Of a stretch of DNA of 60,963 nt, positions 2,793 through 56,472 are shown one piece after another (position 1 is the first letter of the stretch; every line of letters starts with the position of its first letter). This DNA comes from a virus (lineage: Duplodnaviria; Caudoviricetes): IMG/VR virus record IMGVR_UViG_3300050004_000011, positions 1 to 60,963 of that record, one strand, 5' to 3'. The position numbers and the translations under genes are program-made. Under the pieces are notes generated by a model, which was not told the origin of the DNA, did not search any database, and saw nothing but the letters and a program-made list of their open reading frames with translations.

Positions 2793-4352
2793 TCACCGTC
2801 GGTTGGCGATCTTCGCCAGGTTCTCTCGGTACCGCCTCGATTTGTCCGCGAGGCGGTCCAGGGCCTGGGTGGTGGTGTCAACGTGATCGTCGTGGGTGAA
2901 CCGGGGGAACTTGATGTGCTCCTCCCTGACCACGTCGGCGCCGATGATGTACTCGATCTTGTCCACCTTGCGCGAGTCCCCGGGCGGGTACACCACCTGC
3001 CCTGACTCCCACTTCTCGGTGTGGACGTGGTAGCGCTCCTCCTTGGACCCCTGCGGCTCCACGCCCTTGATGCCGGGGAATTTTGATTGCATCTCCTCGA
3101 TGATCGCTGGACCGTTTGCCTTGAGCTCGATCAGCTTGATTTTTGCCCGGTGCCAGTGCGGGCGGGACTGCGCGAGCGTGAACTGCGCCTTGGACGCCAC
3201 GTAGTTCCAGTGCCCACCGACCCAGTCGATCAGACAGTACATCTCCGGGCGCCCCTCGAGCTTGCGCACGATGTAGTCATTTTGGGTGTTGGGCACGCGC
3301 GCCATGCGGTCAGCCAGGCTGCTGAAATACTCACGCACCTCGGCCAGGTCGCGGGTCACGCACCAGAGCTCGCCAGCCACCTTGCTGTGGCTCTCCTTGG
3401 TGCCCTTCGACGAGAAGTCCCACGACTGCACGAAGGTGCCCTTGGTGGGCGCGGAGATCCACTCGAGGCGCGTCCAGGACTCCTCCACGAAGCCGCCAGT
3501 GGCAGGCGTCGGGTCCTGCTGTAGTTGCGCCGAGGCCTCGTTCTTGAGCTTGATCTCCTGGGCGCGTACACGCTCCTCAGGGAACAGTTCCGGCCAGAGC
3601 AGTTCGCCCACTTCCTTGCGCGGGTCGCGAGCCCACATGCTGCGTTTCACCTGCCGTGCCGGCAGGACCAGGCTCTCGTAGCCCTCCGCGATGCACCGCC
3701 CCGCCAGGTCATTGCTGTGAACCCTTTGCATCACGACAACAATCCAGCGCTTAACGCGGGTCTGCAGGGTGCCATCAAACCATGCATCAACTTTCTTGAA
3801 TGCTGCCTCGCGCCCCAAAATTGCATCTTGAGGTTTGAGTGGATCGTCGATGATGATCCCGTCAACGTGACGTCCGGTTCCCTTCCCCTCTGGACTCGTA
3901 TTAAATCGAAATCCACCACGCGAATTTTTGAACTCGCGCAGAGCTGGCGCCTCCTTGCGCAGCTTCACGTACGGATAAGCAGTCTTGTATCGAGCATCGT
4001 TCAGGATGCTGATCATTTGCTCGCTTTGGTTGTTGAGCAGTGACTGGTCGAAGCTGCCCGCCAAAAAGCTGCAGCCCGGATCAAGTGTCCAGAACCATGC
4101 GGGCCAGAAGACGCCTACCATTTTGCTTTTGCTATGGCCGGGAGGAATGTTGATCACGAGGCGCTTGACTTCGCCCAACGTGACTGCGGTCAGATATTCG
4201 CAAATGGCCTCAAGATGCCAATTATCCAAAAAGTCTCGGGGGTCTGTGACGCCCCAGAACTGGCGGACAAATTCGTGTAAACCGCCCCGATCGATCAACT
4301 CCCGCATGATCAGGGCTTCTTCGGGGTCGAACTCGGTGTCGGCGTCAAGCAT
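2793..4352 (-). CDS. terL: Terminase large subunit
   Basis: INIPPGHSKS Walker A, IIIDDP Walker B, QSWDFS and HDDHVD nuclease motifs. Confidence 0.93.
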   Translation of the reverse strand: MLDADTEFDPEEALIMRELIDRGGLHEFVRQFWGVTDPRDFLDNWHLEAICEYLTAVTLGEVKRLVINIPPGHSKSKMVGVFWPAWFWTLDPGCSFLAGSFDQSLLNNQSEQMISILNDARYKTAYPYVKLRKEAPALREFKNSRGGFRFNTSPEGKGTGRHVDGIIIDDPLKPQDAILGREAAFKKVDAWFDGTLQTRVKRWIVVVMQRVHSNDLAGRCIAEGYESLVLPARQVKRSMWARDPRKEVGELLWPELFPEERVRAQEIKLKNEASAQLQQDPTPATGGFVEESWTRLEWISAPTKGTFVQSWDFSSKGTKESHSKVAGELWCVTRDLAEVREYFSSLADRMARVPNTQNDYIVRKLEGRPEMYCLIDWVGGHWNYVASKAQFTLAQSRPHWHRAKIKLIELKANGPAIIEEMQSKFPGIKGVEPQGSKEERYHVHTEKWESGQVVYPPGDSRKVDKIEYIIGADVVREEHIKFPRFTHDDHVDTTTQALDRLADKSRRYRENLAKIANRR

Positions 4353-4389
4353 GTGTAGTCATTTCAGGTAGGCCGGGATCCAGCGTCCA

Positions 4390-4569
4390 GTTGCAGATTC
4401 CAGGGCCTGCACGCCCTTTGGTTTGTGCCGCGGAGCACACCGCACTGACGTTCCTGCTCCCGTTGCAGATTCCAGGGCCTGCACGCCCTTTGGTTTGAGT
4501 GCATTGCTTGGCGCCGCGCAGGACGCCCGCACCGTTGCAGATTCCAGGGCCTGCACGCCCTTTGGTTTG
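4390..4569 (-). CRISPR. Mini CRISPR array: 3 identical 36-bp repeats, two 36-bp spacers
   Basis: Repeat (minus strand) CAAACCAAAGGGCGTGCAGGCCCTGGAATCTGCAAC at 4390-4425, 4462-4497, 4534-4569; unique spacers 4426-4461 and 4498-4533; 7 bp after the nuclease stop. Confidence 0.95.
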
Positions 4570-4576
4570 TCGTCAT

Positions 4577-5860
4577 TCACGCAGCCAAGGATATCGAGGC
4601 TTTGTGGAGGATGTTGCGAGCGGCGTTGATATCCGCGTCTTCGACGTGTCCGCAGCCAGGTGCTACGCACGTGTAGAGTTTGCCGTTCCTGGCTTCTTTC
4701 GCCACGTTGCCGCAATGCGAGCAGGTCTGGCTGGTATAGGCGCAATCCACCTCTCGCACGCGGTCACCAAGTCGCAGTTTGATGACATCCAGCGTCGCGT
4801 GCATGTAGGACAGCCCGCCTGTGTTGCTCTTGAAGTTCTTCGCAAGTTTCTCAACAGCAACGAACTCGTGGAGCTCAAGGCGCGGTAGTAATTCGGAGTG
4901 CAGCCAGTGTACCACGCGACGCTTGTCTGCTTGGTCGATGCGGGCAATCTTGCGGCGCGCACCAACGATCTGCTCAGGACAACGACTCAGGTCAGCCACC
5001 GACTGCAGGGCCGCTCGCGCGGTACGTGCCAGCGCAGTGCGGTCATTTTTCTTGGTGTAACCGTCACTGAGAGCCACCAGATCAGTCTGACCGACATCCA
5101 GCCCGACGCCAGGAGAAACAGGTGTAGTCAGTTTACGCGCAGGCACGATACACTTAACCGCGGCGTACCAACCGTCCGCACGCAAGTTGAGAGTCACACC
5201 CTGCACTTGCTTGCCTGGGATCGGTCGCCGAAGACGTCCCAGCAGAACCATCCCGTTCACCTTGATGCGCGCGTTGTACCAAGGCGCTCCTCGCCGCTCC
5301 CCGTAGAACCCTCCGGTTTCGACCAGAGGTGCGTTCCCCCACACCAGCGGGGCCGGGTCGTTTCTGCGCTTGTAGTTGGCGCGCTTGGTCCTCATCACAC
5401 GCTTTACCGTGTCGCGATACAACACCGCGTTGCCCAGACGACCGTAGATTGAGCGCAGGTCCTGGTACGAATCCTTGCGCCAATCTAGCTCCGGGCGACC
5501 TTTCACAGCGGCGTCGATCTGCTTGTAGTATTTCATCCACACACCCGACGCCAGCACGTCTTTGCAAGCACGCTTGTGCTCGCGCCAGAGCTCTTTGACC
5601 GCCAGTTTTTCTTCGTCAGTCGTTGGCGTCGGGGGGTTCGGAGGCTCTGGCATTACCGGTGCGTCGCCCACCAATTGCTCGCGTTTCGCACAGGCCTTGC
5701 GAGCGTTCTTGACGTCCTCACGCCCACGAACGATGTGGTTGGTGATGTTGCGCACCTCGTCTTGCAGGACGCGCAGGGTTGCGTGTGCTTCCGCGTCGGG
5801 GTAGAGACGGATAAGCTCGACACGTAGTTCGGTGTTCGGTGGTAGTATCAGTTTGTTCAT
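4577..5860 (-). CDS. Compact type V CRISPR effector (TnpB/Cas12f-like RuvC nuclease, 427 aa)
   Basis: N-terminal IRLYP; RuvC-I VGLDVG, RuvC-II VAVEKL, zinc finger TSQTCSHCG...CVAPGC, RuvC-III DADINAARNI; flanked by CRISPR repeats. Confidence 0.92.
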   Translation of the reverse strand: MNKLILPPNTELRVELIRLYPDAEAHATLRVLQDEVRNITNHIVRGREDVKNARKACAKREQLVGDAPVMPEPPNPPTPTTDEEKLAVKELWREHKRACKDVLASGVWMKYYKQIDAAVKGRPELDWRKDSYQDLRSIYGRLGNAVLYRDTVKRVMRTKRANYKRRNDPAPLVWGNAPLVETGGFYGERRGAPWYNARIKVNGMVLLGRLRRPIPGKQVQGVTLNLRADGWYAAVKCIVPARKLTTPVSPGVGLDVGQTDLVALSDGYTKKNDRTALARTARAALQSVADLSRCPEQIVGARRKIARIDQADKRRVVHWLHSELLPRLELHEFVAVEKLAKNFKSNTGGLSYMHATLDVIKLRLGDRVREVDCAYTSQTCSHCGNVAKEARNGKLYTCVAPGCGHVEDADINAARNILHKASISLAA

Positions 5861-5880
5861 GGTTCACACACCGTTGTCTA

Positions 5881-5916
5881 GTTGCAGGTTAGAGGGTCTG
5901 CACACCCTGTGAATCA
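5881..5916 (-). CRISPR. Solo degenerate repeat upstream of the effector, followed by a 20-nt guide-like segment (5861-5880)
   Basis: 26/36 identical to the array repeat; stem AGGGT/ACCCT replaces AGGGC/GCCCT; GTGCAG loop and CTGCAAC end invariant. Confidence 0.85.
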
Positions 5917-7611
5917 AAGCCACAGGCGCCCACCCCTCATCGTCAAAATCGCTCGCTTGCCATTATGGTAGACAACGGTGTGCGAAACGCTCCACGAGCT
6001 CGGACCGTGTGCGTATGGCAGCCGCCTGTTGCACACCCCCGATGAGAACACGCCGTCGCGGATGCACGCCTTGTGGCTGTGCCCCTTCACGATGCGTGTG
6101 GCCATGCGCGAGTACGCCGCGTCGCTGCCGCGCGAGCCATCAGGGCCTCGATCGCCGTGGAGTCCGCACTCGACGGGGTGGTCCGGCGGCCCCACCACGA
6201 AGGACTCATCGCCGCCCAGGAACCGGGCCAGGCTTCCGACGCCATGCCGCTGCATCGCCCACTCCAGGAAGTGCCACCCCTGCCCCTCGCGCAGCGCGCG
6301 GACGCGCGCCAGCTGGGCCTCGAGGTAGAGCTCGGCGTTGGGCAGGTCGGTCTTATAATCCGCCTCGTCCAGCCAGCGCTCTCCGTGAACGTCGTGGTTG
6401 CTCGCCACCACGACTGTCTGGCAGAAGTCACGGTGGGCTAGGTGCAGCAGCGTTGCGGTCACTTTGAGCTCGGCCTCCACGGTGTCGACATCAGCGCCAC
6501 CGATGTGCTTGGCGAAGCGCGCCGCGAAGGACTTCACCTCGTGGTGGCTCCGGTTGCGAAATGAGAGCGTGTCGTGCCAGAGTTGCACTCGGGGCCGCAG
6601 GGTGTCGATCACGCTGTCGGTTCGCCCCCAGTTCAGAGCGCGGACCGCAGGATCAATCTCGCTCGCGTGTATGTCTCCCCAAGATATGGCTTCGACGCGG
6701 TGTCCGCGGGTCACCTGCCCGTCCGCCACGCGGAACGTCAGATCGTGGAACGCGCCGTCGTCGTCCGCGTTCAATTGCCGACACCACCAATTCTCCGAGA
6801 CCAGGTCGACCTCAACAATGAGAGCACCGAACTGGTGATGGAACTCCGCTTTGATGCCCTCTTTTTTGGCGATGTAATTTCGCTGGGTGACGGCGCCGGT
6901 CGTGAAATTCAGCTTGGGCGGGCGCTCACCGATGACCGGCACGCTCTCGAGCGCGATCTTGGCGTGCGGGAAGATGCCCGACGCCGGTCCCGAGTACGAC
7001 TCCAATCCCGATAGTGGGCGGACCGCGGTCGGCAGGATGTTCATTTCTGCGCACCACAGCAGGTCCGGCGCCAAACGCCACTGGCAACTACCGTGCTTCT
7101 GGGGGTCGTCGCAGATGTACTGCTGGATGGCTGGATCGTACCAGAGCCCCTCGTGGTCGCTGCTGCTCGCACGCCCTGCCTTGGTGGCCTTCGCGCCGTA
7201 CGCAGATTTGTTGTAGCTGAACCTAGACACCATGATGCGAGCACCAGTGGCCTCCGCGTACGCTTCCAGGTTTGCCAGGAACTCCGCGTGCACTGGCGTG
7301 TTGTTCTGCGCGCTGGTCAAGATGTAACGGGCCACCTCCGGGCGGTGCGCGCCGGTGCACAGGTCGTTGGGTTGCGGTGCGGGGACGTGCCCGTGCACTA
7401 TCGGGCCGCTGTCGGGGGCCGGTTGCGCGGCGGCGCGGGCGCGGGCCTGCACGGAACGCAAGCGTGACTGAAGTTTGGTGCGCTTCCAGCCGAGCGCCTG
7501 CGCAGCGGTGTTCTGACTGCCGTGCTCCACCAGGGCCTCGATGGCGGTGCGCTCGGTAGTGCTCATGGGGAGATCGAGCAGGCTGGCGTACGGGTTGATG
7601 GGTGCGGTCAT
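5914..7611 (-). CDS. HTH plus metallophosphoesterase-fold protein (T5 A1-like nuclease)
   Basis: ILTSAQNNTPVH, WGDIH, SNHD, HGD, GHSH motifs; N-terminal HTH; start at MTAPINP. Confidence 0.7.
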   Translation of the reverse strand: MTAPINPYASLLDLPMSTTERTAIEALVEHGSQNTAAQALGWKRTKLQSRLRSVQARARAAAQPAPDSGPIVHGHVPAPQPNDLCTGAHRPEVARYILTSAQNNTPVHAEFLANLEAYAEATGARIMVSRFSYNKSAYGAKATKAGRASSSDHEGLWYDPAIQQYICDDPQKHGSCQWRLAPDLLWCAEMNILPTAVRPLSGLESYSGPASGIFPHAKIALESVPVIGERPPKLNFTTGAVTQRNYIAKKEGIKAEFHHQFGALIVEVDLVSENWWCRQLNADDDGAFHDLTFRVADGQVTRGHRVEAISWGDIHASEIDPAVRALNWGRTDSVIDTLRPRVQLWHDTLSFRNRSHHEVKSFAARFAKHIGGADVDTVEAELKVTATLLHLAHRDFCQTVVVASNHDVHGERWLDEADYKTDLPNAELYLEAQLARVRALREGQGWHFLEWAMQRHGVGSLARFLGGDESFVVGPPDHPVECGLHGDRGPDGSRGSDAAYSRMATRIVKGHSHKACIRDGVFSSGVCNRRLPYAHGPSSWSVSHTVVYHNGKRAILTMRGGRLWL

Positions 7612-7847
7612 TTTTGGGCGGTGTCCTGGGTGCGGAGGCGGTACAGGGCGCGCAGCGCGACACCCAACGAAATGAAGCTGAAGGCGAGCATGCCCGGCAG
7701 TCCTGAGTAGTAGGAGAGCAAGCCCCAGCCGACCTGGCTTGAGAGACACACCCACCAGCCCAACACGTAGCGCTGCTCGGCCAGCAGCCAGCGCGTGAGC
7801 ACAGACCAGACGCACATCACCCAACTACCGAGCTCGATGGCGGTCAC
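7608..7847 (-). CDS. Small multi-pass membrane protein
   Basis: Three hydrophobic segments; GTG start overlapping the upstream stop. Confidence 0.55.
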   Translation of the reverse strand: MTAIELGSWVMCVWSVLTRWLLAEQRYVLGWWVCLSSQVGWGLLSYYSGLPGMLAFSFISLGVALRALYRLRTQDTAQK

Positions 7848-8245
7848 GACTTGGCCGCCAGTCGCACGCGGGCCGCGGCGGCGTCTCGGGCGGATCGGCG
7901 CGTCATCAGATCCACCACCCCGGCGGGAGGCGGAACGGCAGGACGATCCAGCAAGAATGTTTCGCCGGTTACAGGATTTCCCAGGGATACTATCGAGCTC
8001 CAAGGAAGCTCACAGAAGTATGGTTGGCCTCCGAAAGACAGCATGCAGGCAATGCGCCGCACGTTCACGTGCAGATTGGACATCGGCACAGGAGTATGGA
8101 AACCGATCTCCAGGTACAGGCGTTCGTCGTCAAGGAACTCGTCTGGCACGCGCACGTCCACGTGACGCGGGTCTAGGCAGATCAAAACGTTGCCATGATT
8201 GAGCATGTTCAGAAAGAATTGCGTTGGGGGCTGCGGTGCGGTCAT
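7844..8245 (-). CDS. SspB-like ClpXP adaptor protein
   Basis: LDPRHVDVRVP...LSFGGQPYFCELPWSSI resembles the SspB fold signature. Confidence 0.65.
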   Translation of the reverse strand: MTAPQPPTQFFLNMLNHGNVLICLDPRHVDVRVPDEFLDDERLYLEIGFHTPVPMSNLHVNVRRIACMLSFGGQPYFCELPWSSIVSLGNPVTGETFLLDRPAVPPPAGVVDLMTRRSARDAAAARVRLAAKS

Positions 8246-8751
8246 TTGTTGGTGCCCTTGGCTTTGGCTTTGAGTGCTTGGTACATGCGTAGCTCTTCGA
8301 CGGTGAATTTGGACAGGTCCTCGCGGCCGCCGGCGCCGTCGGCACCCACGGTTTTGAGTTGGATCTCGCGCAGCAGGTGCACCGCGCCCACGATGTCCTT
8401 TAACGATGCAACGGCGTGTGGCTCGGTGCTGCACTGCTGGACCAGCTTGGTGGACTCGATCTCGGCGACGCGCACCAGGTTGTCCAGGATCTTGGCGGTG
8501 CTGGTGGCTTGGTCGGGCGCCAATTGCTGGGCCCTATCAAACGCCGACGCGCGCTGGGCCCACTCCCAGGCCTGGGCGGTGGCCTGCATGGCGGCGGGAG
8601 GGGCGCCACGACTGACACCCTTCTCGACCCAGTCGATGAACCCCCAATACTCGGCGTCGGTCTCGCCGGTGCGCTGCTCCCAGAGCTGCTCGAGGGCGAC
8701 GATCTTGTTGACAGAGCGCACGGTGCGCGAGAGAGAACCCCCGCGACTCAT
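8242..8751 (-). CDS. Putative terminase small subunit
   Basis: WEQRTGETDAEYWGF...WEWAQRASAFD pattern and C-terminal DLSKFTVEEL; lies between portal and terL. Confidence 0.55.
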   Translation of the reverse strand: MSRGGSLSRTVRSVNKIVALEQLWEQRTGETDAEYWGFIDWVEKGVSRGAPPAAMQATAQAWEWAQRASAFDRAQQLAPDQATSTAKILDNLVRVAEIESTKLVQQCSTEPHAVASLKDIVGAVHLLREIQLKTVGADGAGGREDLSKFTVEELRMYQALKAKAKGTNK

Positions 8752-9167
8752 GGGTACCCAGCAGCCGCGATACCTGCCAGGATATCAGTGATAGGGTCGC
8801 TGTCCTGTACCCAGGAGGTGTGTTTGATGATCACGTGCGGTGAGTTCTTCGGCAAGTTGTCGACCCAGTCATCCAGCAACACGCGGTTGATCTCAGTACG
8901 CTCGTCCAGGTGCTTCTGCCAATAGGAAGAAGGACCCGGGTCGGGAATGTGGATCACACCGGCCTCAAACAATTGTTTGACGATGGCCGTACGACTCGAA
9001 TGCAATTGCATTCCGCCAGGCAGTCCGAAGTTCATGCGCTTCAGCAGCCCGCGGTACTGCCAGGGAGTCATCGGTGCCCAGCACAGGCTTTCGGCGGTCA
9101 GGGCGGCTTGGGTCTGCACTCGGCGGCGCCGTCTGGCGCGGACTTTGGCGTTGCTCATTCCTCGCAC
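8748..9167 (-). CDS. Hypothetical protein
   Basis: ORF coupled to neighbours by overlapping stop/start. Confidence 0.55.
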   Translation of the reverse strand: MRGMSNAKVRARRRRRVQTQAALTAESLCWAPMTPWQYRGLLKRMNFGLPGGMQLHSSRTAIVKQLFEAGVIHIPDPGPSSYWQKHLDERTEINRVLLDDWVDNLPKNSPHVIIKHTSWVQDSDPITDILAGIAAAGYP

Positions 9168-9273
9168 TCCGTCAGGATGCAGTTCAAGGTTTCGATGATG
9201 TCGTCACCGTCGTACACGCCATCCTCATCCGTCTCTTCGATCAGCGCCTCGATGGCTTCGCGCAGCGTTCGCA

Positions 9274-9522
9274 TCACTCCCCTCCCTCGGTGAGGTCACT
9301 CGGATCGCCGCGCCAGATGGGGGTACTCTCGTCCCCGGACGTGTGCTCACTGACTCGAAGAATGGTACCCTTCAGTAGTTTGACCCATGCGGTCAGATCG
9401 TGCAGCTCGATTGGGTCCACGTTGTCGTAGAGCTCCTCGGTGGCGGCCTCCACGAGCTCGCGGAAGGCCTCGGGGGTCAGCTGGGTGTGTCGGGTGCGGG
9501 GGTATCGGTTGGTGTTGCTCAT
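9274..9522 (-). CDS. Hypothetical protein directly downstream of a solo repeat
   Basis: ATG at 9522, 30 nt after the repeat. Confidence 0.55.
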   Translation of the reverse strand: MSNTNRYPRTRHTQLTPEAFRELVEAATEELYDNVDPIELHDLTAWVKLLKGTILRVSEHTSGDESTPIWRGDPSDLTEGGE

Positions 9523-9552
9523 GATACTTTCAGGCGGTGTGGAAGGTGTGGT

Positions 9553-9588
9553 GTTGCAGATTCTACGGCCTGCACGCCGTGTGGTCAT
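9553..9588 (-). CRISPR. Second solo repeat, ~3.7 kb from the effector, followed by guide-like ACCACACCTTCCAC
   Basis: 29/36 identical to the array repeat; compensatory stem ACGGC/GCCGT; intergenic. Confidence 0.88.
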
Positions 9589-9589
9589 T

Positions 9590-9901
9590 TCATCCAACAA
9601 CGTTGCTGAGGAACACGTTGTGATCGGGGTCGTAGGGTTGGGGGCTGTCTGCGTCTAGGATCGAGATGTCCGTCTCGATGTAATGAAAGGTGTGGTCAAA
9701 TCGATGGGTGATGGTGCGGGGCGGGCCGCCGCGATCGGGCCGCCGGTGGAACTCGGCCACGAACTGCCCGTTGCCGCCGACCCGGAAGTGGTCGAACAGA
9801 GCCCACTCACTCTCGGGCACGCTCTCGACCCACTTCATGATGGTGGGCACCAAGTCGGGGCGCCAGTTGCGAGCAAGTCCGATGATTGAATATGAGTACA
9901 A
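9590..9901 (-). CDS. Hypothetical protein containing the self-match of the solo-repeat guide
   Basis: ORF with AAAGGA RBS before a TTG start. Confidence 0.6.
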   Translation of the reverse strand: MYSYSIIGLARNWRPDLVPTIMKWVESVPESEWALFDHFRVGGNGQFVAEFHRRPDRGGPPRTITHRFDHTFHYIETDISILDADSPQPYDPDHNVFLSNVVG

Positions 9902-10000
9902 GGTGTCCTTTGGTGGTTGTTAACCGGGGCAACCCGCCCCCCTGAAACAATCCTGACACAGCAAAAGAAACTGACCACAACTTTCGGGAGGAAAGTTTCG

Positions 10001-10696
10001 TCAGCGCTGTGGGGTAGATCCCGGACCAGGTGGGCGCACAATTGGGTACGCTTGGCACCGACACTGGTTTGGTTCACCCGGGCATCCGTGAAAGTCAGGC
10101 AGGTCCGTTAGTGGCGGTCTGTCCCAACGCTGCACGGTGCCTTCCAGCCGCCAGTGCATGGCGCGCACCTTCGAATCGTTTTGGGTTGTCCAAATATACC
10201 ACCCTGCCCCCGCCGCTTCGGCGATGATGCGCACCTGGCGCGCGTGCTCGCGCAGCACGTGGCGGGCGGCAGCGCCCGACGCAGACTCGAGGATGGTGGC
10301 CAGCGCGGCGGCCCTGAGGGCACGCTGCACGGCCCGGGTCACGGTCGCCACCCAACCGGCGGGCGCGGGCGTCGGGGCAGCGCGAGCGGCCTCCCTGGCG
10401 GCGCCCGGGGGCAATGCGGATACCACTCCCCGGCGGGCCCCTATACCGATCGCGCGCAGGGCCTTTTGGGCGGCTTCCTTCCAGCGCGTCCCCAGTGTGG
10501 GTCGGGGCTCCGCATCGTTCACCAACGCCCCCGATTCGCGCAATTCAATCACCAGCGCGGCGCGCAGCGCCGCTATCACAGCATCGGGCGGGCGCGGGCC
10601 GCGCCGGCGGCGCACCGCTGTGGACGGCACCACTGTGCTGCGCGGGTCAGGGCGCCCGTTGGGCGGCAGCCGGGGAACTCGCGGGCGGCGGATCAC
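10001..10696 (-). CDS. Head morphogenesis protein (SPP1 gp7/Mu F-like)
   Basis: YIWTTQNDSKVRAMH...PGEPNQCRC motif; follows the portal. Confidence 0.8.
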   Translation of the reverse strand: MIRRPRVPRLPPNGRPDPRSTVVPSTAVRRRRGPRPPDAVIAALRAALVIELRESGALVNDAEPRPTLGTRWKEAAQKALRAIGIGARRGVVSALPPGAAREAARAAPTPAPAGWVATVTRAVQRALRAAALATILESASGAAARHVLREHARQVRIIAEAAGAGWYIWTTQNDSKVRAMHWRLEGTVQRWDRPPLTDLPDFHGCPGEPNQCRCQAYPIVRPPGPGSTPQR

Positions 10697-10905
10697 AGAT
10701 CGAAGGCCTTGACGTAGTCGGCGGCGGACTGGAAGTTCTTGAACTTGCGGCAGTGCTTGCTGTGGCGCGGCAGGTAAACCCAGCCAGCGCTGCGCCCGCG
10801 CGCAGTGCAAAGAGACACCGTGGCTACGTAGTCGTCGTTGCGCCACAACTGCCAGCCTTTGCCGTCAGTCCAGATTGGGATCCATCCGTCTTTTGGTGCG
10901 GTCAT
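10693..10905 (-). CDS. Small hypothetical protein
   Basis: Coupled ORF between portal and head morphogenesis gene. Confidence 0.5.
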   Translation of the reverse strand: MTAPKDGWIPIWTDGKGWQLWRNDDYVATVSLCTARGRSAGWVYLPRHSKHCRKFKNFQSAADYVKAFDL

Positions 10906-12416
10906 TTTTCCTCTGCGCGCTGCTTCTGGGCAATCTTGGCGGCGCCCTGCTTGCCGGGGGCGCCCTGCGGCGGGACCTCTTCGGGCTCCCCTGCCCCCGA
11001 GACGTCGTCGCGGCTGTCCTCCGCATCAGCGCCAGACACCTCCACGAAGGTGCCAGCAGCGCGGGCCTCCGCAATCTGCTTGGCGGAGTAGCCCATGTCC
11101 CAGTAGATCTTGTCGGCGTTCGCGTGCGCTGTCCTGGTTTGGGCCTTTTCGTTGTCGGAGCTCTCCCACAGTGAAGGCCATTCCACTTCCACTTCCTTGC
11201 CGCCGTTGACCGCGGTGAGGAGCGTGCCCAGCTTGGGGCCCAGGTAGTATTTTTGGTAGTTCTGGCACGTGTTGTAGAACTGCGTCAGGTCCGCCTCTCC
11301 CTTGCTGTTGGCGTTCAGCCCGCTCGGACTCGAGGAGAAGAAAATACTGGCGGGCGTCTCGGCGCAGCCGGCCACGTTGGCCATGAGTTGCTGCATGATG
11401 GCGGGGATGTCCGTCATGCTCGCCTCGGTGCGCTCGAACTCCTCATCGTTGTCCTTGTCGAGGAACATCATCCGGTGCACGGAGCGGGTCTCCTGCAGCA
11501 CGCGCAGGCGGTCCTCGATCAGGTCCTTGGCCTCACTCGCGAGTCCCTCCACGAGGCCAGACAGTTTCATGACGCCGATGCTGGCGTCCTGCAGGATGTT
11601 GCTCACCGCTGACCACGCGAGGCCGTAGCGCCCGATGTCCTGGAGCACGGGCGTGAGCACACTGACGCCGAGCTCGGGCTGCGCGTGGCTGCCGGTCACG
11701 TCGAACACGTCCAGGCCGGTGTTGGGGACGCGCAGCGGTCGCCCGGAGAACCGAATCGATCGGGACGCATGAAAGATCTGCCCGACTCGCGGGTGCAGCG
11801 GCCCATAGGCGTTGGCGATCACCTGGTACACGGACGGCATGCCGAAGAGCGGCGAACGCGGATCCATGTCGCGCTTCAGGACGCGGAGCTCGTGCTGCGC
11901 GAAGAGATCGAAGAACGCGATACCGCCCTCGCGCTGCTCGTCAGTGAGTGGGGTGAACGGCATCCCTTTGTTGTAGCCGATCCACAGCACGCTCCCGCCG
12001 TGCGCGCGGCCGTCGAGCACCCCGCGCTCGAACACGCCCCGGGGGAAGCGCTCGTTGCGGTTCAATTGCGAGAACGTCTTGAGCAACTCACTGCTGGCCG
12101 GCGTGCCCGCGCCGTCGCCCTTGATACCGTACCCGCGCACCAGGGCCACGCTGGGCATCTTCTCGATGATGCGATCGGCAAGCCAGTCGTAGGTGTAGAG
12201 CTTGTCCACCGTCATCGGGGTGGGGATCTGCCCGGACCGGTACTGCAGCGCGGCCGTGGGGTCCAACCCGGGCATTCCCAACCCCGTCATGGGGTTCATC
12301 CAGCCGGACGTGGTGACAGACACCCCCGAGGGGCACAGCGCGGTGCTCGAGTCGGTGCGGGGGGCGGGCGCCGGGGGCGCCGCGTCGAGAAAACGGGACA
12401 GGTTGCGTGTGCGCAT
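10902..12416 (-). CDS. Portal protein (DUF1073-like)
   Basis: SGWMNPMTGLG, LYTYDWLADRIIE, DPRSPLFGMP, IFHASR, PSGLNA motifs; 504 aa. Confidence 0.85.
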   Translation of the reverse strand: MRTRNLSRFLDAAPPAPAPRTDSSTALCPSGVSVTTSGWMNPMTGLGMPGLDPTAALQYRSGQIPTPMTVDKLYTYDWLADRIIEKMPSVALVRGYGIKGDGAGTPASSELLKTFSQLNRNERFPRGVFERGVLDGRAHGGSVLWIGYNKGMPFTPLTDEQREGGIAFFDLFAQHELRVLKRDMDPRSPLFGMPSVYQVIANAYGPLHPRVGQIFHASRSIRFSGRPLRVPNTGLDVFDVTGSHAQPELGVSVLTPVLQDIGRYGLAWSAVSNILQDASIGVMKLSGLVEGLASEAKDLIEDRLRVLQETRSVHRMMFLDKDNDEEFERTEASMTDIPAIMQQLMANVAGCAETPASIFFSSSPSGLNANSKGEADLTQFYNTCQNYQKYYLGPKLGTLLTAVNGGKEVEVEWPSLWESSDNEKAQTRTAHANADKIYWDMGYSAKQIAEARAAGTFVEVSGADAEDSRDDVSGAGEPEEVPPQGAPGKQGAAKIAQKQRAEEK

Positions 12417-54274: not shown

Positions 54275-55159
54275 GTGACGATCCAATACCTGACCGGAGC
54301 GCACAACGCGGGTGTAGAGGGCATCGCCCACGACCGCAATATCGGCCTGCTAGTGCAGCCTGGCAATCGTTATGACTTGCAGGTGCACAACTATCCCGTG
54401 TGGGCGGGTGACAACGGCGCCTTTACCACTGTGAAGGGCGGCTTTTCTCCGGAGCGTTTCCGCACCATGCTGGCCCGCCCCAACTTGCTGGCGGCCCACG
54501 AAGGTCGTCTGGTTGAATACGTTGCCGAGGTGGAAGGCCGTCTCGAGCTCGAGACCTATGCGGCGCCCACGGTTGCCGCGGCGCATGCATTCGTGGCCGG
54601 CTGCGATGCTGCGCGCGTGTGTCATTCACCGTGCCTATTCGTGGTGGCGCCTGACGCGCTCATAGTGGGCGCGGACGGGCATGTCCGTGGTGATGCCGTG
54701 GCCACACTCGAGCGATTCGACGTGTGGGCGCCTGAGATCCGTGCCGCGGGCTTTCCCGTCGCACTCGTTGCACAGAACGGCCTCGAGCAATGGCTGGACT
54801 ATGTGTGGTGGGATATGGTCGATGTGTTGTTCCTCGGCGGCGGTCCCGATCCAGCGCTAGTCACCCGGGCCAACCGCAAGGGCGAGTGGAAGCTGTCCGA
54901 GCTCGCTCGAGAGTGCGTTGTCCGAGCTCAACTCGAGGGCAAGCCCACACACATGGGTCGCGTCAACTCCTACAAGCGAATGGCACTCGCACAGGCATGG
55001 GGCGTGGACACCGCGGACGGTACGTTCCTCGCGTTCGGCCCTAAGAAAAACCTACCACGGCTAGTAAAGTGGCTAGACAAGCTGAATCTGACCGCACCGC
55101 CCGCACTACTGCCGGGCGTGCCCGCAAACATCCACCAAAACATACAAAAGGCGTCATGA
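54275..55159 (+). CDS. Putative TGT/DpdA-like TIM-barrel protein
   Basis: GDNGAF, VAPD, LFLGG, HMGRVNS, DTADGT motifs. Confidence 0.5.
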   Translation: MTIQYLTGAHNAGVEGIAHDRNIGLLVQPGNRYDLQVHNYPVWAGDNGAFTTVKGGFSPERFRTMLARPNLLAAHEGRLVEYVAEVEGRLELETYAAPTVAAAHAFVAGCDAARVCHSPCLFVVAPDALIVGADGHVRGDAVATLERFDVWAPEIRAAGFPVALVAQNGLEQWLDYVWWDMVDVLFLGGGPDPALVTRANRKGEWKLSELARECVVRAQLEGKPTHMGRVNSYKRMALAQAWGVDTADGTFLAFGPKKNLPRLVKWLDKLNLTAPPALLPGVPANIHQNIQKAS

Positions 55160-55560
55160 AAGTATATCTCGCAGGGCCGATCAATGGCCGCACCGACAGT
55201 GAGTGCAAAGACTGGCGCGCGCTCGCCACAACCGAGCTCGGGGCGGACAACGTGTTTGACCCGATGGTGAGGGACTATCGGGGGCGCGAAGGCGAGCTCG
55301 GTATTGCCAAGGCGATCGTGGAACAGGACAAGGCAGACATCGATGCGAGCTCGGATGTGCTCGTATACTTCGACAGCCCGTCCGTGGGGACGGCTATGGA
55401 AATCCTGTACGCGTGGCAACGAGGTAAGCGCGTGTGGGTATGCAACGTGAGCGGCAAGGCACCATCGCCGTGGCTCGTGTATCACTCGCGGTGCATTCAG
55501 AGCTCGCTCGCGGACACCATCTCTGCAGTGCAGTGCTACCACGCCCGCACTGCAGTGTGA
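55156..55560 (+). CDS. Nucleoside 2-deoxyribosyltransferase-family protein
   Basis: KVYLAGP, D...ID, SVGTAMEI. Confidence 0.85.
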   Translation: MKVYLAGPINGRTDSECKDWRALATTELGADNVFDPMVRDYRGREGELGIAKAIVEQDKADIDASSDVLVYFDSPSVGTAMEILYAWQRGKRVWVCNVSGKAPSPWLVYHSRCIQSSLADTISAVQCYHARTAV

Positions 55561-56084
55561 ATCTGACCGCACCGTAGGAATCGACAACGGTCTGCGCTTT
55601 TACCTTCTTGTGAATCTGACCGCAGCCGTTCATAGTAAGTGAGGGCAGCGACGCTGACCTCCCCCGCCGGTGGCACCGGCTGAACCCCTCCCTTGGTGGC
55701 GATGATGACTGGGACAGGCAATTACGCGGCCAGCAAACAGCGATAGCGATACCGCGGCGAATCAAGCGGTAACCAAAGCCCGGCACCCCACAAGGTGACC
55801 GGGCATACGGCATTAGGAGACCCTGAAAATGGCCACATCACACCGCATGTCCGCTGCCCGCCGCTCGCTTGCCACGATCATCGCAGTTGCCGCACTACTC
55901 GCATGCGCTGGCATGGCCCGCGCTGATGTGTGCACGAAGGGCAAGCCGGTCATCACTACCGACAGTGCAGGCCGCACGATCATCACCACCCCCAAGGTGT
56001 GTGTGGTGACCCCCACCACGAAGTGACAGCCAGTTAGTTTTTTCGATCCCAAAACTGCAAAATAATTTCAGGAGACCAATTCCC

Positions 56085-56417
56085 ATGACCTCAGCAATCG
56101 AATCCGCCTCGTTTCAGACCTACGCCGCTTGGCTCGATGAACAACGCAACTTCGTGAGCTATGATGACAGCACCGAGCGCGCGGACTGGCTCGCGGACAA
56201 CGCGCCCGGTCACTTCCACGAACCCGATTACGCCGCGGCCGCGGCTGAACTAGGGCTCTCGTTTGACCCTGCCAACTTTGAGTACGACAGCAACGAGGGG
56301 CAGCAGATCACGGAATCGGCCGAGGCCGACATGACGAATACCGAACGCGGGTGGCTGCTGTCGTGGGAGTGGTCGGTCGACGAAAATGATACCGCTCCCG
56401 GCCCCAAGCGAAAGTGA
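56085..56417 (+). CDS. Acidic hypothetical protein
   Basis: AGGAG RBS. Confidence 0.6.
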   Translation: MTSAIESASFQTYAAWLDEQRNFVSYDDSTERADWLADNAPGHFHEPDYAAAAAELGLSFDPANFEYDSNEGQQITESAEADMTNTERGWLLSWEWSVDENDTAPGPKRK

Positions 56418-56472
56418 CCGCACCTGCTCAAGTCTGACCGCAACCACCCGTTCACATTTACAGGAGCCAATC

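What the first reader, a model, noticed from the sequence alone, without database searches (positions are those of the whole stretch)
9539..9696. Remote solo repeat with a guide against a recoded site in its own neighbour gene
Seen: about 3.7 kb from the effector, an intergenic repeat is followed by (G)AC CAC ACC TTC CAC. The upstream gene (9696-9683) reads (G)AC CAC ACC TTT CAT. Both give DHTFH; identity is 12/14, both mismatches are synonymous C-to-T in self, and the site is preceded by TTG. Inference: a non-autonomous guide cassette of ~50 bp that uses the effector in trans to drive a second locus (itself and perhaps the small genes downstream). This is the third neighbour-matching guide, each starting at the first base after CTGCAAC.
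Basis: partly seen in the sequence, partly recalled or inferred. Interest (0 to 1): 0.87.

Follow-up and report, generated by a model that had tools for sequence, protein, structure and literature searches.

The report
Orphan CRISPR guide unit in phage
A soil phage that carries its own miniature Cas12-type nuclease also keeps a stray copy of that nuclease's guide-RNA repeat 3.7 kb away, and its short guide nearly matches the gene next door, which fits phage-against-phage targeting but is not proven for this copy.

Summary
The sequence facts are right. At 9553-9591 (- strand) lies a real, diverged copy of the 36-nt repeat of a mini-array that follows a 427-aa TnpB/Cas12f-like nuclease gene (4577-5860). 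A covariance model scores it 53.9 bits, and it keeps the stem through a compensatory pair. The 14 nt after it match 9696-9683 at 12 of 14. That site follows TTG, and both mismatches are synonymous.

The match alone is weak: p about 0.024, or about 1 in 21 among sites sharing the core of a dispersed motif, which supplies 8 of the 12 matched bases. It gains weight from a pattern. Two other terminal guides in the window, four spacers in relative L010 and two in L004 nearly match their own nuclease gene or adjacent genes. Five of the seven sites in the window and L010 follow TTN.

Best reading (0.4): an orphan crRNA unit that uses the phage's nuclease in trans against rival alleles of the neighbour gene, with the phage's own allele spared by mismatches. 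Homing ("drive") is untested. Rivals are CreR/CreA-like self-regulation (0.2) and a chance or motif-driven match (0.3). A TnpB-style empty-site origin is refuted by homologues. No relative's DNA for this locus could be fetched.

The parts
9553..9591 (-). Orphan (solo) repeat: variable 5' part, then the conserved 27-nt handle (5-bp stem ACGGC/GCCGT, loop GTGCAG, tail ending CTGCAAC).
   Evidence: cmsearch 53.9 bits, E 2.3e-15. Family D2, 75% identity over 40 nt. Stem and pseudoknot pair in 95 of 95 cells.
9539..9552 (-). Guide-like 14 nt starting at the first base after CTGCAAC. The next codon, ACC, may extend the homology to 17 nt (down to 9536).
   Evidence: Both protein homologues have T at the next position.
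9683..9699 (-). Near-self site in the upstream gene: TTG (9699-9697) plus a 14-nt site. 12 of 14 bases equal the guide; the mismatches are at guide positions 11 and 14.
9590..9901 (-). Upstream neighbour gene (103-aa ORF; the database gene call is 82 aa from M22), function unknown. Conserved motif PDRGGPPRTITHRFDH.
   Evidence: No Pfam or PHROG family.
9274..9522 (-). Downstream neighbour gene (82 aa), function unknown. Its ATG lies 30 nt after the repeat.
   Evidence: Homologues of 74-79 aa start at this ATG.
4577..5860 (-). Effector: a 427-aa TnpB/Cas12f-like RuvC nuclease.
   Evidence: Pfam Cas12f1-like_TNB 6.5e-15. D255/E337/D410 and 4 Cys invariant in 27 sequences. Model pLDDT 86; Foldseek to AsCas12f and TnpB, TM 0.55-0.57.
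4390..4572 (-). Mini-array: 3 repeats, 2 spacers of 36 nt, period 72.
4372..4389 (-). Trailing guide after the last array repeat (18 nt of homology).
   Evidence: 15 of 18 bases match terL at 4091-4074, which follows TTC. All 3 mismatches are synonymous (WTLDPG).
4074..4091 (-). Near-self site of the trailing guide, inside the terminase large subunit gene (2793-4352).
   Evidence: terL assigned by phrog_38, 4.5e-56.
5881..5919 (-). Second solo repeat, between the DNA-transfer-protein gene and the nuclease ATG (stem variant AGGGT/ACCCT).
   Evidence: 51.9 bits.
5861..5880 (-). Guide of the upstream solo repeat. It ends at the nuclease start codon.
   Evidence: 14 of 14 and 18 of 20 match + strand 5969-5988.
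5969..5988 (+). Near-self site of the upstream guide, in the 3' end of the DNA-transfer-protein gene. The 5' flank is TGG, not TTN.
   Evidence: The RNA stem with the guide has z = -5.16.

Best explanation
The element is an orphan crRNA unit of the phage's own compact type V (TnpB/Cas12f-like) CRISPR system. It is one repeat with an intact handle plus a short guide, parked in the 67-nt gap between two small conserved genes 3.7 kb from the nuclease gene.

Inferred mechanism: it is transcribed with the operon on the - strand. The nuclease binds the handle in trans and trims 5' of it, giving an RNA of handle plus about 14-18 nt of guide. The guide derives from, and is aimed at, a TTN-flanked site in the version of the neighbour gene carried by related phages that co-infect the same cells. 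The phage's own copy is spared because it mismatches at positions 11, 14 and from 15 onward.

Cutting a rival genome next to this locus would exclude it. If the break is repaired from the carrier genome, this region would be copied in; that homing step is a possible consequence, not shown.

Shown here: the repeat, its conserved structure, the near-self match with its TTG flank, and the family-wide pattern. Inferred: expression, loading, guide length, the real target and the outcome.
For: 1. Real unit with an intact handle. It scores 53.9 bits. Only 3 of its 27 handle positions differ from the array repeat, and two of those are a compensatory pair. Stem plus pseudoknot pair in 95 of 95 cells with 3 covarying pairs, and 0 of 500 shuffles reach that.

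2. The nuclease looks active and able to use short repeats. D255/E337/D410 are invariant in 27 sequences. True arrays follow its relatives: 7 repeats in L010, 4-8 in L002 and L013, 15 in L004. No anti-repeat was found in window 3900-6100.

3. Near-self guides recur.
- Window: 3 of 5 guides; uniform score p = 0.003, 0.024, 0.055, and 0.43 for the other two.
- L010: spacers 1, 2 and 6 match 25/30, 24/30 and 21/24 to its own nuclease gene or the adjacent ORF, with 0 of 200 shuffles each. Spacer 7 matches 13/14. The other 5 guides tested there show nothing.
- L004: 2 of 15 spacers match 25/30 and 23/30 to its own nuclease gene and to the upstream neighbour. Across its complete 49.9-kb genome the only other hit is a 22/30 match.

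4. TT at positions -3,-2 of 5 of 7 near-self sites, against a background of 3.6-5.3% (p = 8e-6; without this site 4 of 6, p = 1e-4). This site has TTG.

5. Every near-self site carries an escape feature, either seed mismatches or a defective flank.

6. In the window, 6 of 7 mismatches of the three guides are synonymous third-position changes. My binomial estimate is p about 0.007.

7. The guide's next codon is Thr, as in 2 of 2 protein homologues, whereas the phage's own gene has Tyr.

8. Precedent: in archaeal viruses with mini-arrays, the carrier's orthologous loci bear point mutations and the targets lie close to the arrays (PMC6858448, passages read).
Against: - The 12/14 match is marginal alone (p = 0.024; 1 of 21 motif-sharing sites scores as high). 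8 of the 12 matched bases are the core of a motif with 23 ACC[AG]CACC copies on that strand. Three equal 12/14 matches lie elsewhere in the window.
- All thresholds were chosen after seeing the data.
- Homology stops after 14 (at most 17) nt, which is short for cleavage.
- No true protospacer was found for any spacer. Searches gave 0 hits in IMG/VR.
- No relative's DNA for this locus was reachable, so no TTC CAC allele has been seen. The two protein homologues read DHTIH and DHKYH.
- L002, L013, L005 and L009 arrays show no near-self spacers: 0 of 4, 0 of 4 distinct, 0 of 5 and 0 of 2.
- The phage's own site keeps an intact TTG and a 10-nt seed, which would equally suit self-binding.
- A 7-nt direct repeat, ACCACAC, flanks the handle, so the guide may simply be pre-existing intergenic sequence.
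- Expression and loading are untested.
Confidence: 0.4

Rival explanations
1. Regulatory cr-like RNA, as with CreR or CreA. The solo unit guides the nuclease to bind, not cut, the phage's own site (TTG plus 10-nt seed, 12/14). The bound complex acts as a roadblock or repressor for transcription running from the head genes into the downstream genes, which include the nuclease gene 3.7 kb further on.
For: - Stand-alone repeats whose spacers are partly complementary, from the PAM side, to targets in their own locus are common and experimentally shown for types I-B, I-E and V-A (bioRxiv 2023.03.10.532045 and 2023.03.03.530964, passages read).
- This site has an intact TTG flank made by a minor TTT codon and 10 contiguous PAM-proximal matches.
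- The protospacer is on the coding strand.
- The sister solo repeat lies directly upstream of the nuclease gene. It has a perfect 14-nt seed against a site that abuts a CATAAT hexamer, which is the classic CreR position.
Against: - The target lies inside a coding region, about 100 nt before its stop, and no promoter-like site was predicted there.
- The array's trailing guide and L010 spacers 1, 2 and 6 have seed mismatches that would prevent self-binding, so the family pattern is not regulatory.
- The perfect-seed sites of the upstream guide and L010 spacer 7 lack the TTN flank (TGG, CTC).
- 10 nt is at the low end for stable binding.
Confidence: 0.2
2. The repeat is real, but the guide match is coincidence helped by the dispersed motif. 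The unit then works without a guide (RNA processing site in the operon, sponge that titrates the nuclease, recombination scar or decaying array remnant), or it now serves as a promoter.
For: - 8 of the 12 matches are the motif core, and the motif-conditioned null is about 1 in 21.
- Three other 12/14 matches exist in the window.
- The handle is flanked by the direct repeat ACCACAC, and its 5' flank is a full motif copy (GAAATGACCACAC) directly after the upstream stop. The 'guide' may therefore be the rest of a split motif copy.
- L010's three non-array guides tested (7001, 4036, 3598-) show no near-self match.
- The solo variant creates ATGACC-17-TAGAAT, a -35/-10-like pair.
- In 5 of 7 cases terminal repeats sit 20-38 nt before the next start codon, which suits a role in mRNA processing.
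Against: - Beyond the motif core, the next two codons still encode the same dipeptide, F-H. Four of 4096 hexamers would do so (my calculation).
- The TTG flank has a 3.6% background.
- Among 24 motif copies read, only these two are followed by TT.
- The two other terminal guides of the same genome also match neighbours.
- The promoter-like hit is weak: 9 of 12, with 4 found against 1.0 expected in 5.9 kb.
Confidence: 0.3
3. TnpB-style homing guide. The unit plus the gene's C-terminal tail was inserted into an ancestral gene that ended DHTFHTA*, and the guide is the flank that matches the empty site in full.
For: Read in the gene's frame, the guide gives DHTFHTA followed by a stop. The nuclease is TnpB-like.
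Against: Two of 2 homologues (67% and 56% identity, 104 and 102 aa) keep the whole tail after DHTxH, so the tail is native. No TnpA was looked for and no transposon ends were seen. The repeats form arrays.
Confidence: 0.03
4. RNA anti-CRISPR decoy. A solitary repeat mimics the host's CRISPR repeat to poison host Cas proteins.
For: Solitary repeat units in phages are known to act this way (PMC10651486; only the search listing and the start of the abstract were seen).
Against: The repeat is that of the phage's own array and nuclease. A scan of 185,579 species genomes for the handle pattern gave 2 single hits with broken stems (15.8 and 17.5 bits) and no array.
Confidence: 0.03

Closest known systems
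Virus-borne mini-CRISPR arrays in interviral conflicts (Sulfolobus portogloboviruses SPV1/SPV2; PMC6858448, passages read; review PMC11656645, passages read)
   Same: Spacers carried by a virus target close relatives. The carrier's orthologous locus has point mutations that prevent self-targeting. The targets lie close to the array, a proximity the authors called unexplained.
   Different: Those arrays borrow the host's Cas machinery and host-type repeats. Here the phage encodes its own 427-aa nuclease, the repeats match no host array found, and one guide unit sits alone 3.7 kb from the array. No matching rival genome has been found here.
CreR / CreA and other cr-like regulatory RNAs (bioRxiv 2023.03.10.532045 and 2023.03.03.530964, passages read)
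   Same: A stand-alone, diverged repeat with a conserved handle, followed by a short spacer-like stretch that is partly complementary, from the PAM side, to a site in its own locus. About half of V-A loci have such repeats, mostly upstream of cas12a, as with the copy at 5881-5919.
   Different: Known targets are promoters of cas or toxin genes in cellular genomes. This target is inside a phage structural-module gene, and most near-self guides of this family have seed mismatches.
Phage-encoded compact type V systems: Cas12r of Thermus Lalka phages (bioRxiv 2026.04.20.719267, outline and passages) and Cas12p 'hacker' (bioRxiv 2025.01.20.633832, abstract and sections 5 and 7)
   Same: A TnpB-like nuclease gene in a phage is followed by a short array and is proposed to act in conflicts between mobile elements. 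Cas12r works with crRNA only.
   Different: Cas12r is 564 aa with 29-bp repeats, and its spacers hit integrative elements. Cas12p is 500-700 aa, uses a GTN PAM and needs a tracrRNA. This protein is 427 aa with 36-nt repeats, a pseudoknot handle and an apparent TTN flank. Neither paper, in the parts read, reports remote solo units or neighbour-matching guides.
TnpB/omegaRNA transposon homing (PMC10055086 and PMC10690162; search listing and start of abstract only)
   Same: The same protein superfamily. A guide placed next to a structured RNA cuts the allele that lacks the element and promotes copying by recombination.
   Different: No transposon ends or TnpA were seen. The repeats form arrays. 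The empty-site model fails for this locus.
Free-standing homing endonucleases of phages and their marker exclusion (recalled textbook knowledge; no call)
   Same: A nuclease cuts a rival's allele of a gene near its own insertion site, the carrier allele is resistant through nearby polymorphisms, and flanking markers are co-converted.
   Different: There recognition is by protein, not RNA. Homing is not shown here.

Membership tests
Type V CRISPR-Cas (Cas12/TnpB-derived effector with array) | RuvC-like nuclease with the D-E-D triad and a zinc-ribbon TNB domain | tested here: met
   D255, E337, D410 and C380/C383/C398/C403 are invariant in 27 sequences. Pfam PF07282 6.5e-15. Foldseek to AsCas12f and TnpB, TM 0.55-0.57.
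Type V CRISPR-Cas (Cas12/TnpB-derived effector with array) | Adjacent array of direct repeats with unique spacers | tested here: met
   3 repeats and 2 spacers in the window. 7 repeats in L010. Arrays also in L002, L013, L004 and L005.
Type V CRISPR-Cas (Cas12/TnpB-derived effector with array) | Membership of a named subtype (NCBIfam or Pfam model above cut-off) | tested here: not met
   guided_TnpB scores 85.8 bits, below the cut-off of 100. Cas12f2 scores 32 against 450. Best PDB sequence hits among natural proteins are TnpB at about 3e-13, and only over residues 196-422.
Type V CRISPR-Cas (Cas12/TnpB-derived effector with array) | RNA-guided interference with a PAM | not testable with these tools
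   There is only an inferred TTN flank, at 5 of 7 near-self sites.
Solitary crRNA unit of the cognate system | Repeat copy outside the array with the conserved handle and structure | tested here: met
   53.9 bits. Stem and pseudoknot are kept, with a compensatory pair.
CreR/CreA-like regulatory cr-like RNA | PAM-proximal partial complementarity to a PAM-flanked site in its own locus | tested here: met
   TTG plus 10 contiguous matches, 12 of 14 overall.
CreR/CreA-like regulatory cr-like RNA | Target at the promoter of a cas, toxin or cargo gene | tested here: inconclusive
   The target lies inside the 3' part of a coding region. No promoter-like site was predicted there by a sigma-70 scan, which may not suit this host.
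CreR/CreA-like regulatory cr-like RNA | Conservation of the unit and its target in related loci | not testable with these tools
   No relative's DNA for this locus was reachable.
Virus-borne anti-virus spacers (interviral conflict) | Spacer matches a related virus | tested here: inconclusive
   Two 22-nt exact scans of IMG/VR gave 0 hits. There is indirect support only: L010 spacer 2 matches the orthologous self gene at 29 of 38 with non-synonymous differences, and L010 spacer 5 matches the window at 861-834 at 21 of 28.
Virus-borne anti-virus spacers (interviral conflict) | The carrier's orthologous locus is mutated so that it is not targeted | tested here: met
   All 7 near-self sites in the window and L010 have seed mismatches, distal mismatches or a non-TTN flank.
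TnpB omegaRNA of an IS200/IS605-type element | The guide equals the flank of an insertion, and the target equals the uninterrupted site | tested here: not met
   Homologues keep the C-terminal tail that the model requires to be inserted.
RNA anti-CRISPR (Racr) solitary repeat | The repeat mimics a host CRISPR repeat | tested here: not met
   No array with this handle in 185,579 species genomes, only 2 weak single hits. The host is unknown, so absence is not proof.
Homing (gene-drive-like) element | Cleavage of the element-free allele and copying of the element by repair | not testable with these tools
   Only the proximity of near-self sites to the repeats is seen: 89-300 nt in the window and 0.2-1.7 kb in the complete L004 genome.

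The most novel reading that the evidence does not exclude
Phage-borne compact Cas12 cassettes and their detached single-guide satellites work as programmable homing systems. Each guide is aimed at the rival allele of the gene beside it, or of the nuclease gene itself. The carrier allele is immunised by synonymous recoding or by loss of the flank. A cut in a co-infecting relative is then repaired from the carrier, which spreads the cassette or the 50-nt satellite. That would be a natural RNA-guided gene drive among phages, with the solo unit at 9.5 kb acting as a non-autonomous rider.
Probability: 0.15. Interest if true: 0.85.

Novelty: new variant of a known kind. Interest (0 to 1): 0.55.

Why it matters
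If the reading holds, a small phage carries a self-contained RNA-guided weapon against its own kin. The weapon consists of a 427-aa nuclease, a mini-array and detached single-guide units, each guide placed next to the gene whose rival allele it targets.

This would extend the mini-array interviral conflict seen in archaeal viruses to bacteriophages that bring their own nuclease. It would also offer an explanation for the unexplained closeness of targets to arrays noted in that work. And it would make RNA-guided homing between phages directly testable.

The nuclease family is of practical interest too. It is 427 aa, has a 27-nt pseudoknot handle and shows no sign of a tracrRNA, which makes it a very compact candidate genome-editing enzyme. 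For the solo unit itself the case is still circumstantial.

Tried and rejected
- **Relatives' DNA for the 9.5-kb locus was not obtained.** Megablast and tblastn against 50,697 phage records gave no match for the region or the 103-aa gene. terL reaches at most 34% identity. IMG/VR protein-pattern scans with the nuclease, terL and the 103-aa family gave no close relative.
- **Sequencing runs.** One holder was listed, the probable source, and no RNA holder was listed. Laying its contigs showed no variant allele and no joint at the locus. Neither result is evidence either way.
- **Spacer targets.** Exact 22-nt scans of IMG/VR for the two array spacers gave 0 hits. Window guides against the other loci gave nothing at 72% or more.
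- **Coding N-terminal extension from ATG 9588.** It is in frame and has the start motif, but it was rejected because 5 homologues start near the ATG at 9522.
- **TnpB empty-site model.** Rejected.
- **Dispersed motif as a -35 box.** Rejected: 4 of 51 copies have a TANNNT at the right spacing.
- **RNA pairing of the solo guide with its site.** They are direct repeats, and the region's fold has z = -0.19.
- **Rare-codon argument for recoding.** Kept only as weak support.
- **Known RNA families.** Rfam gave no family in 4200-10100 at E of 1 or below.
- **tRNA genes.** None in the window.
- **Function of the neighbour genes.** No Pfam or PHROG family. The Atlas gave scores of 0.89 or lower and nothing usable.
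- **Literature.** Six searches found no paper on this repeat or nuclease family.
Full report
**What the window is.** It is a complete 60,963-base virus record (CheckV 100%) with 63% G+C. From about 2.7 to 50 kb the genes run on the - strand. Around the finding, the order on that strand is as follows:
- portal (10902-12416)
- MuF-like head protein (10001-10846)
- a 103-aa gene (9590-9901)
- an 82-aa gene (9274-9522)
- three small ORFs
- a DNA-transfer protein (phrog_1745; ORF 5914-7824)
- a 427-aa TnpB/Cas12f-like protein (4577-5860)
- the large terminase (2793-4352; phrog_38)

No cultured phage is close: terL reaches at most 34% identity.

**The system the solo repeat belongs to.** Directly after the stop of the 427-aa gene lie three 36-nt repeats with a period of 72 nt, so there are two 36-nt spacers.

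The protein has Pfam Cas12f1-like_TNB (6.5e-15). It scores below the NCBIfam cut-off for guided TnpB (85.8 against 100). Its best PDB sequence relatives among natural proteins are TnpB (about 3e-13, residues 196-422). An AlphaFold model (pLDDT 86) matches AsCas12f and TnpB at TM 0.55-0.57 with 16-17% identity.

Among 40 database proteins with E of 0.001 or less, 26 are full-length relatives at 50-69% identity. In the alignment of all 27 sequences, D255, E337, D410 and four zinc-ribbon cysteines are invariant. The nuclease therefore looks active.

Relatives whose DNA could be fetched carry real arrays. L010 (59% identity) has 7 repeats. L012 has one repeat after the gene. L002/L003/L014 and L013 (about 30% identity) have 4-8 repeats with a related handle. 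L004, L005 and L009 have 36-nt repeats of another type, 15 copies in L004.

No Cas1 is encoded in the window. No anti-repeat was found within window 3900-6100.

**The handle.** Eleven distinct repeat variants share a 5-bp stem, a GTGCAG loop and a tail ending CTGCAAC. The loop bases GCAG can pair with the CTGC of the tail to form a pseudoknot. All 95 of 95 cells pair. Three pairs change on both sides: G-C/C-G, C-G/U-A and A-U/G-C. No shuffle out of 500 reaches the observed pairing or covariation score, and slid controls pair at 12-46%. The variable 5' third of the repeat and the conserved 3' 27 nt fit a Cas12a-like crRNA with a 5' handle and a 3' guide. Neither Rfam nor the literature searches recognise the repeat.

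**The observation.** Model R1 finds exactly five copies in the window: the three array repeats, one at 5881-5919 and one at 9553-9591. They score 51.9-60.6 bits, and the next hit scores 9.5 bits.

The copy in question begins at the stop codon of the 103-aa gene and ends 30 nt before the ATG of the 82-aa gene. Five homologues of the 82-aa gene (74-79 aa) start at that ATG, so the repeat is intergenic. The in-frame ATG at 9588 is not the gene start.

Within the 27-nt handle the copy differs from the array repeat at three positions, and two of those are a compensatory stem pair.

The 14 nt after CTGCAAC equal 9696-9683 at 12 of 14. That site follows TTG, and both mismatches are synonymous in the frame DHTFH.

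**How much of it is chance.**
- Of 6000 random 14-mers in the window, 99 (1.65%) have a match of at least 12/14 within +-200 nt.
- A single anchored score was applied to all five guides against 8000 random positions. It gives p = 0.003 for the guide at 5880, 0.024 for this one, 0.055 for the array's trailing guide, and 0.43 for each of the two array spacers.
- The first 8 matched bases, ACCACACC, are the core of a dispersed motif. TGACCRCA occurs 51 times where 6.4 are expected, and ACC[AG]CACC occurs 23 times on the - strand. Among the 21 other such sites, 1 scores as high as this one.
- Three further 12/14 matches lie elsewhere in the genome.

Taken alone, the match would not carry the interpretation.

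**What raises it.**

1. The two other terminal guides behave the same way.
   - The trailing guide of the array matches terL codons 88-93 at 15 of 18. The site follows TTC, and all three mismatches are synonymous.
   - The guide at 5880 matches + strand 5969-5988 at 14 of 14 and 18 of 20, with one synonymous and one non-synonymous difference.
   - Six of seven mismatches at third positions has a binomial probability of about 0.007 (my calculation).

2. L010 shows the pattern more strongly.
   - Spacer 1 matches its own nuclease gene at 25/30.
   - Spacers 2 and 6 match the ORF next to the array at 24/30 (29/38 over the full length, with amino-acid changes) and at 21/24. For spacers 1, 2 and 6, 0 of 200 shuffles reach the score.
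   - The trailing guide (spacer 7) matches that ORF at 13/14, but not beyond (p = 0.97 at 30 nt).
   - The other five guides tested in L010 show nothing.

3. L004 has a different repeat type, and its complete 49.9-kb genome was read. Two of 15 spacers match its own nuclease gene (25/30) and a gene 1.7 kb upstream (23/30). The only other hit genome-wide is a 22/30 match.

4. Five of the seven near-self sites in the window and L010 have TT at -3,-2, against a background of 3.6-5.3% (p = 8e-6; without this site 4 of 6, p = 1e-4). This site has TTG.

5. Every near-self site carries something that would spare the carrier. Four sites have seed mismatches. The two sites with perfect seeds have a non-TTN flank (TGG, CTC). 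This site has mismatches at 11, 14 and onward.

6. The guide's next codon is Thr, as in both protein homologues of the neighbour gene, whereas the phage's own gene has Tyr.

Negative results belong here as well. L002, L013, L005 and L009 show no near-self spacer: 0 of 4, 0 of 4 distinct, 0 of 5 and 0 of 2.

**Reading.** The best-supported explanation is that these phages aim part of their guides at variant alleles, in related phages, of their own cassette and of the genes beside it. This was reported for archaeal viruses with mini-arrays, where the carriers' orthologous loci bear point mutations and the targets lie close to the arrays for unexplained reasons (PMC6858448). The unit at 9553-9591 would be a detached member of that arsenal, served in trans by the nuclease.

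I put 0.4 on this whole chain. The repeat being a functional binding unit seems considerably more likely than that. The weak link is the biological reality of its 14-nt match.

Nothing here tests it (0.15).

**Rivals.**

*Regulation.* A CreR/CreA-like regulatory role is a serious alternative. Such RNAs have exactly this anatomy: a diverged stand-alone repeat with a PAM-side partial match to their own locus. This site keeps its TTG and a 10-nt seed, and the TTG is made by a minor TTT codon. Against it, the target lies inside a coding region with no promoter-like site, and most near-self guides of the family could not bind their own site.

*Coincidence.* A motif-driven coincidence remains substantial (0.3). 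The handle is flanked by the direct repeat ACCACAC. Its 5' flank is a complete copy of the dispersed motif placed, as at other gene junctions, right after the upstream stop. The 'guide' may therefore be the remainder of a split motif copy. What that does not explain is the identical F-H dipeptide after the core, the TTG flank, and the behaviour of the sister guides.

*Empty-site model.* The TnpB-style model is refuted. Both homologues keep the C-terminal tail that the model needs to be an insertion.

*Decoy.* A decoy against a host system is unlikely. No array with this handle was found in 185,579 species genomes.

**'Recoded in self'.** The phage's own gene uses TTT and CAT (0.20 each genome-wide), while the guide has TTC and CAC. 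terL uses ACA (0.13) and CTT (0.09) at two of its three mismatches. This fits escape by synonymous change. However, windows of 10 codons with at least 5 minor codons make up 13% of all such windows, so the support is weak.

**Novelty.** Solitary repeats, viral mini-arrays aimed at relatives and phage-borne compact type V systems are all in print. Three things appear new in the six searches made:
- this nuclease and handle family
- a detached single-guide unit belonging to the phage's own system
- the recurrence of guides that nearly match the carrier's own nuclease gene and adjacent genes

I class it as a new variant of a known kind. Interest is moderate to high for the family pattern and moderate for this unit, whose own evidence is circumstantial.

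Noticed in passing
window, 51 sites (e.g. 7610, 8244, 10904, 21735, 22340, 22807, 31457 on -; 509, 50946, 55089-56435 on +): A dispersed oriented motif, RAAA-N-TGACCRCAC(C). It occurs 51 times where 6.4 are expected, and its strand follows gene direction in both arms. The N-TG is ATG, GTG or TTG in 38 of 51 copies and often opens an ORF, yet 13 copies have CTG and several lie inside genes. It is not followed by a -10 box (4 of 51). It may be a start-associated or regulatory signal; its function is unknown.
   Followed up: partly
window 5861-5988 (- strand RNA): The guide of the solo repeat upstream of the nuclease gene pairs with 5988-5969. This makes a long stem (MFE -63.9 kcal/mol, z = -5.16) that encloses the repeat hairpin and covers the nuclease start codon. 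The DNA site abuts a CATAAT hexamer at 5967-5962. This suggests autoregulation of the nuclease, either CreR-like at the DNA level or by occluding translation at the RNA level.
   Followed up: partly
window 9584-9578 and 9552-9546: A perfect 7-nt direct repeat, ACCACAC, flanks the 26-nt handle of the solo unit. The 33 nt between are a multiple of three, in frame with ATG 9588. It could be a footprint of insertion by microhomology into a motif copy. It is unexplained.
   Followed up: partly
window 9588-9560 (-): The solo variant of the repeat creates a -35/-10-like pair, ATGACC-17-TAGAAT (9 of 12). Its predicted start would fall at about the first guide base. The evidence is weak: 4 such sites were found where 1.0 was expected in 5.9 kb.
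   Followed up: no
L010 3599-3694 (-), 3997-4035 (+), 6962-7000 (+): L010 has four repeats outside its array: an oppositely oriented two-repeat mini-array with a spacer of only about 18 nt, a solo copy about 160 nt upstream of the nuclease gene, and a solo copy 1 kb downstream of the array. Three of them carry the covarying pseudoknot variant GCGG/CCGC.
   Followed up: partly
L010 4757-4786; L004 7613-7642: In two different loci, the first spacer of the array nearly matches the carrier's own nuclease gene (25/30 each). This suggests that rival variants of the cassette target one another.
   Followed up: partly
L013 9552-9923; L005 9427-9533; L004 8431-8862: Identical spacers recur within arrays: one spacer occurs four times in L013, and there are duplicates in L005 and L004. 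The window has no Cas1. These arrays seem to grow by unit duplication or recombination rather than by ordinary acquisition.
   Followed up: no
window 861-834 (-) versus L010 5847-5874: L010 spacer 5 matches the window phage at 21 of 28. This hints that L010's array is aimed at genes of phages of this group. The window gene at that place was not identified.
   Followed up: no
window 4353-4389, 5861-5880, 9523-9552; L010 5994-6031, 3572-3598: In 5 of 7 cases terminal or solo repeats lie only 20-38 nt upstream of the next gene's start codon, so the 'guide' doubles as that gene's 5' leader. In two window cases the leader contains CCTGAAA.
   Followed up: no
window 7611 versus 7824: The DNA-transfer-protein ORF is listed from TTG 7824 (636 aa). 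The PHROG match begins at residue 110, and an ATG at 7611 carries the dispersed start motif, so the true start may be 7611 (565 aa).
   Followed up: no
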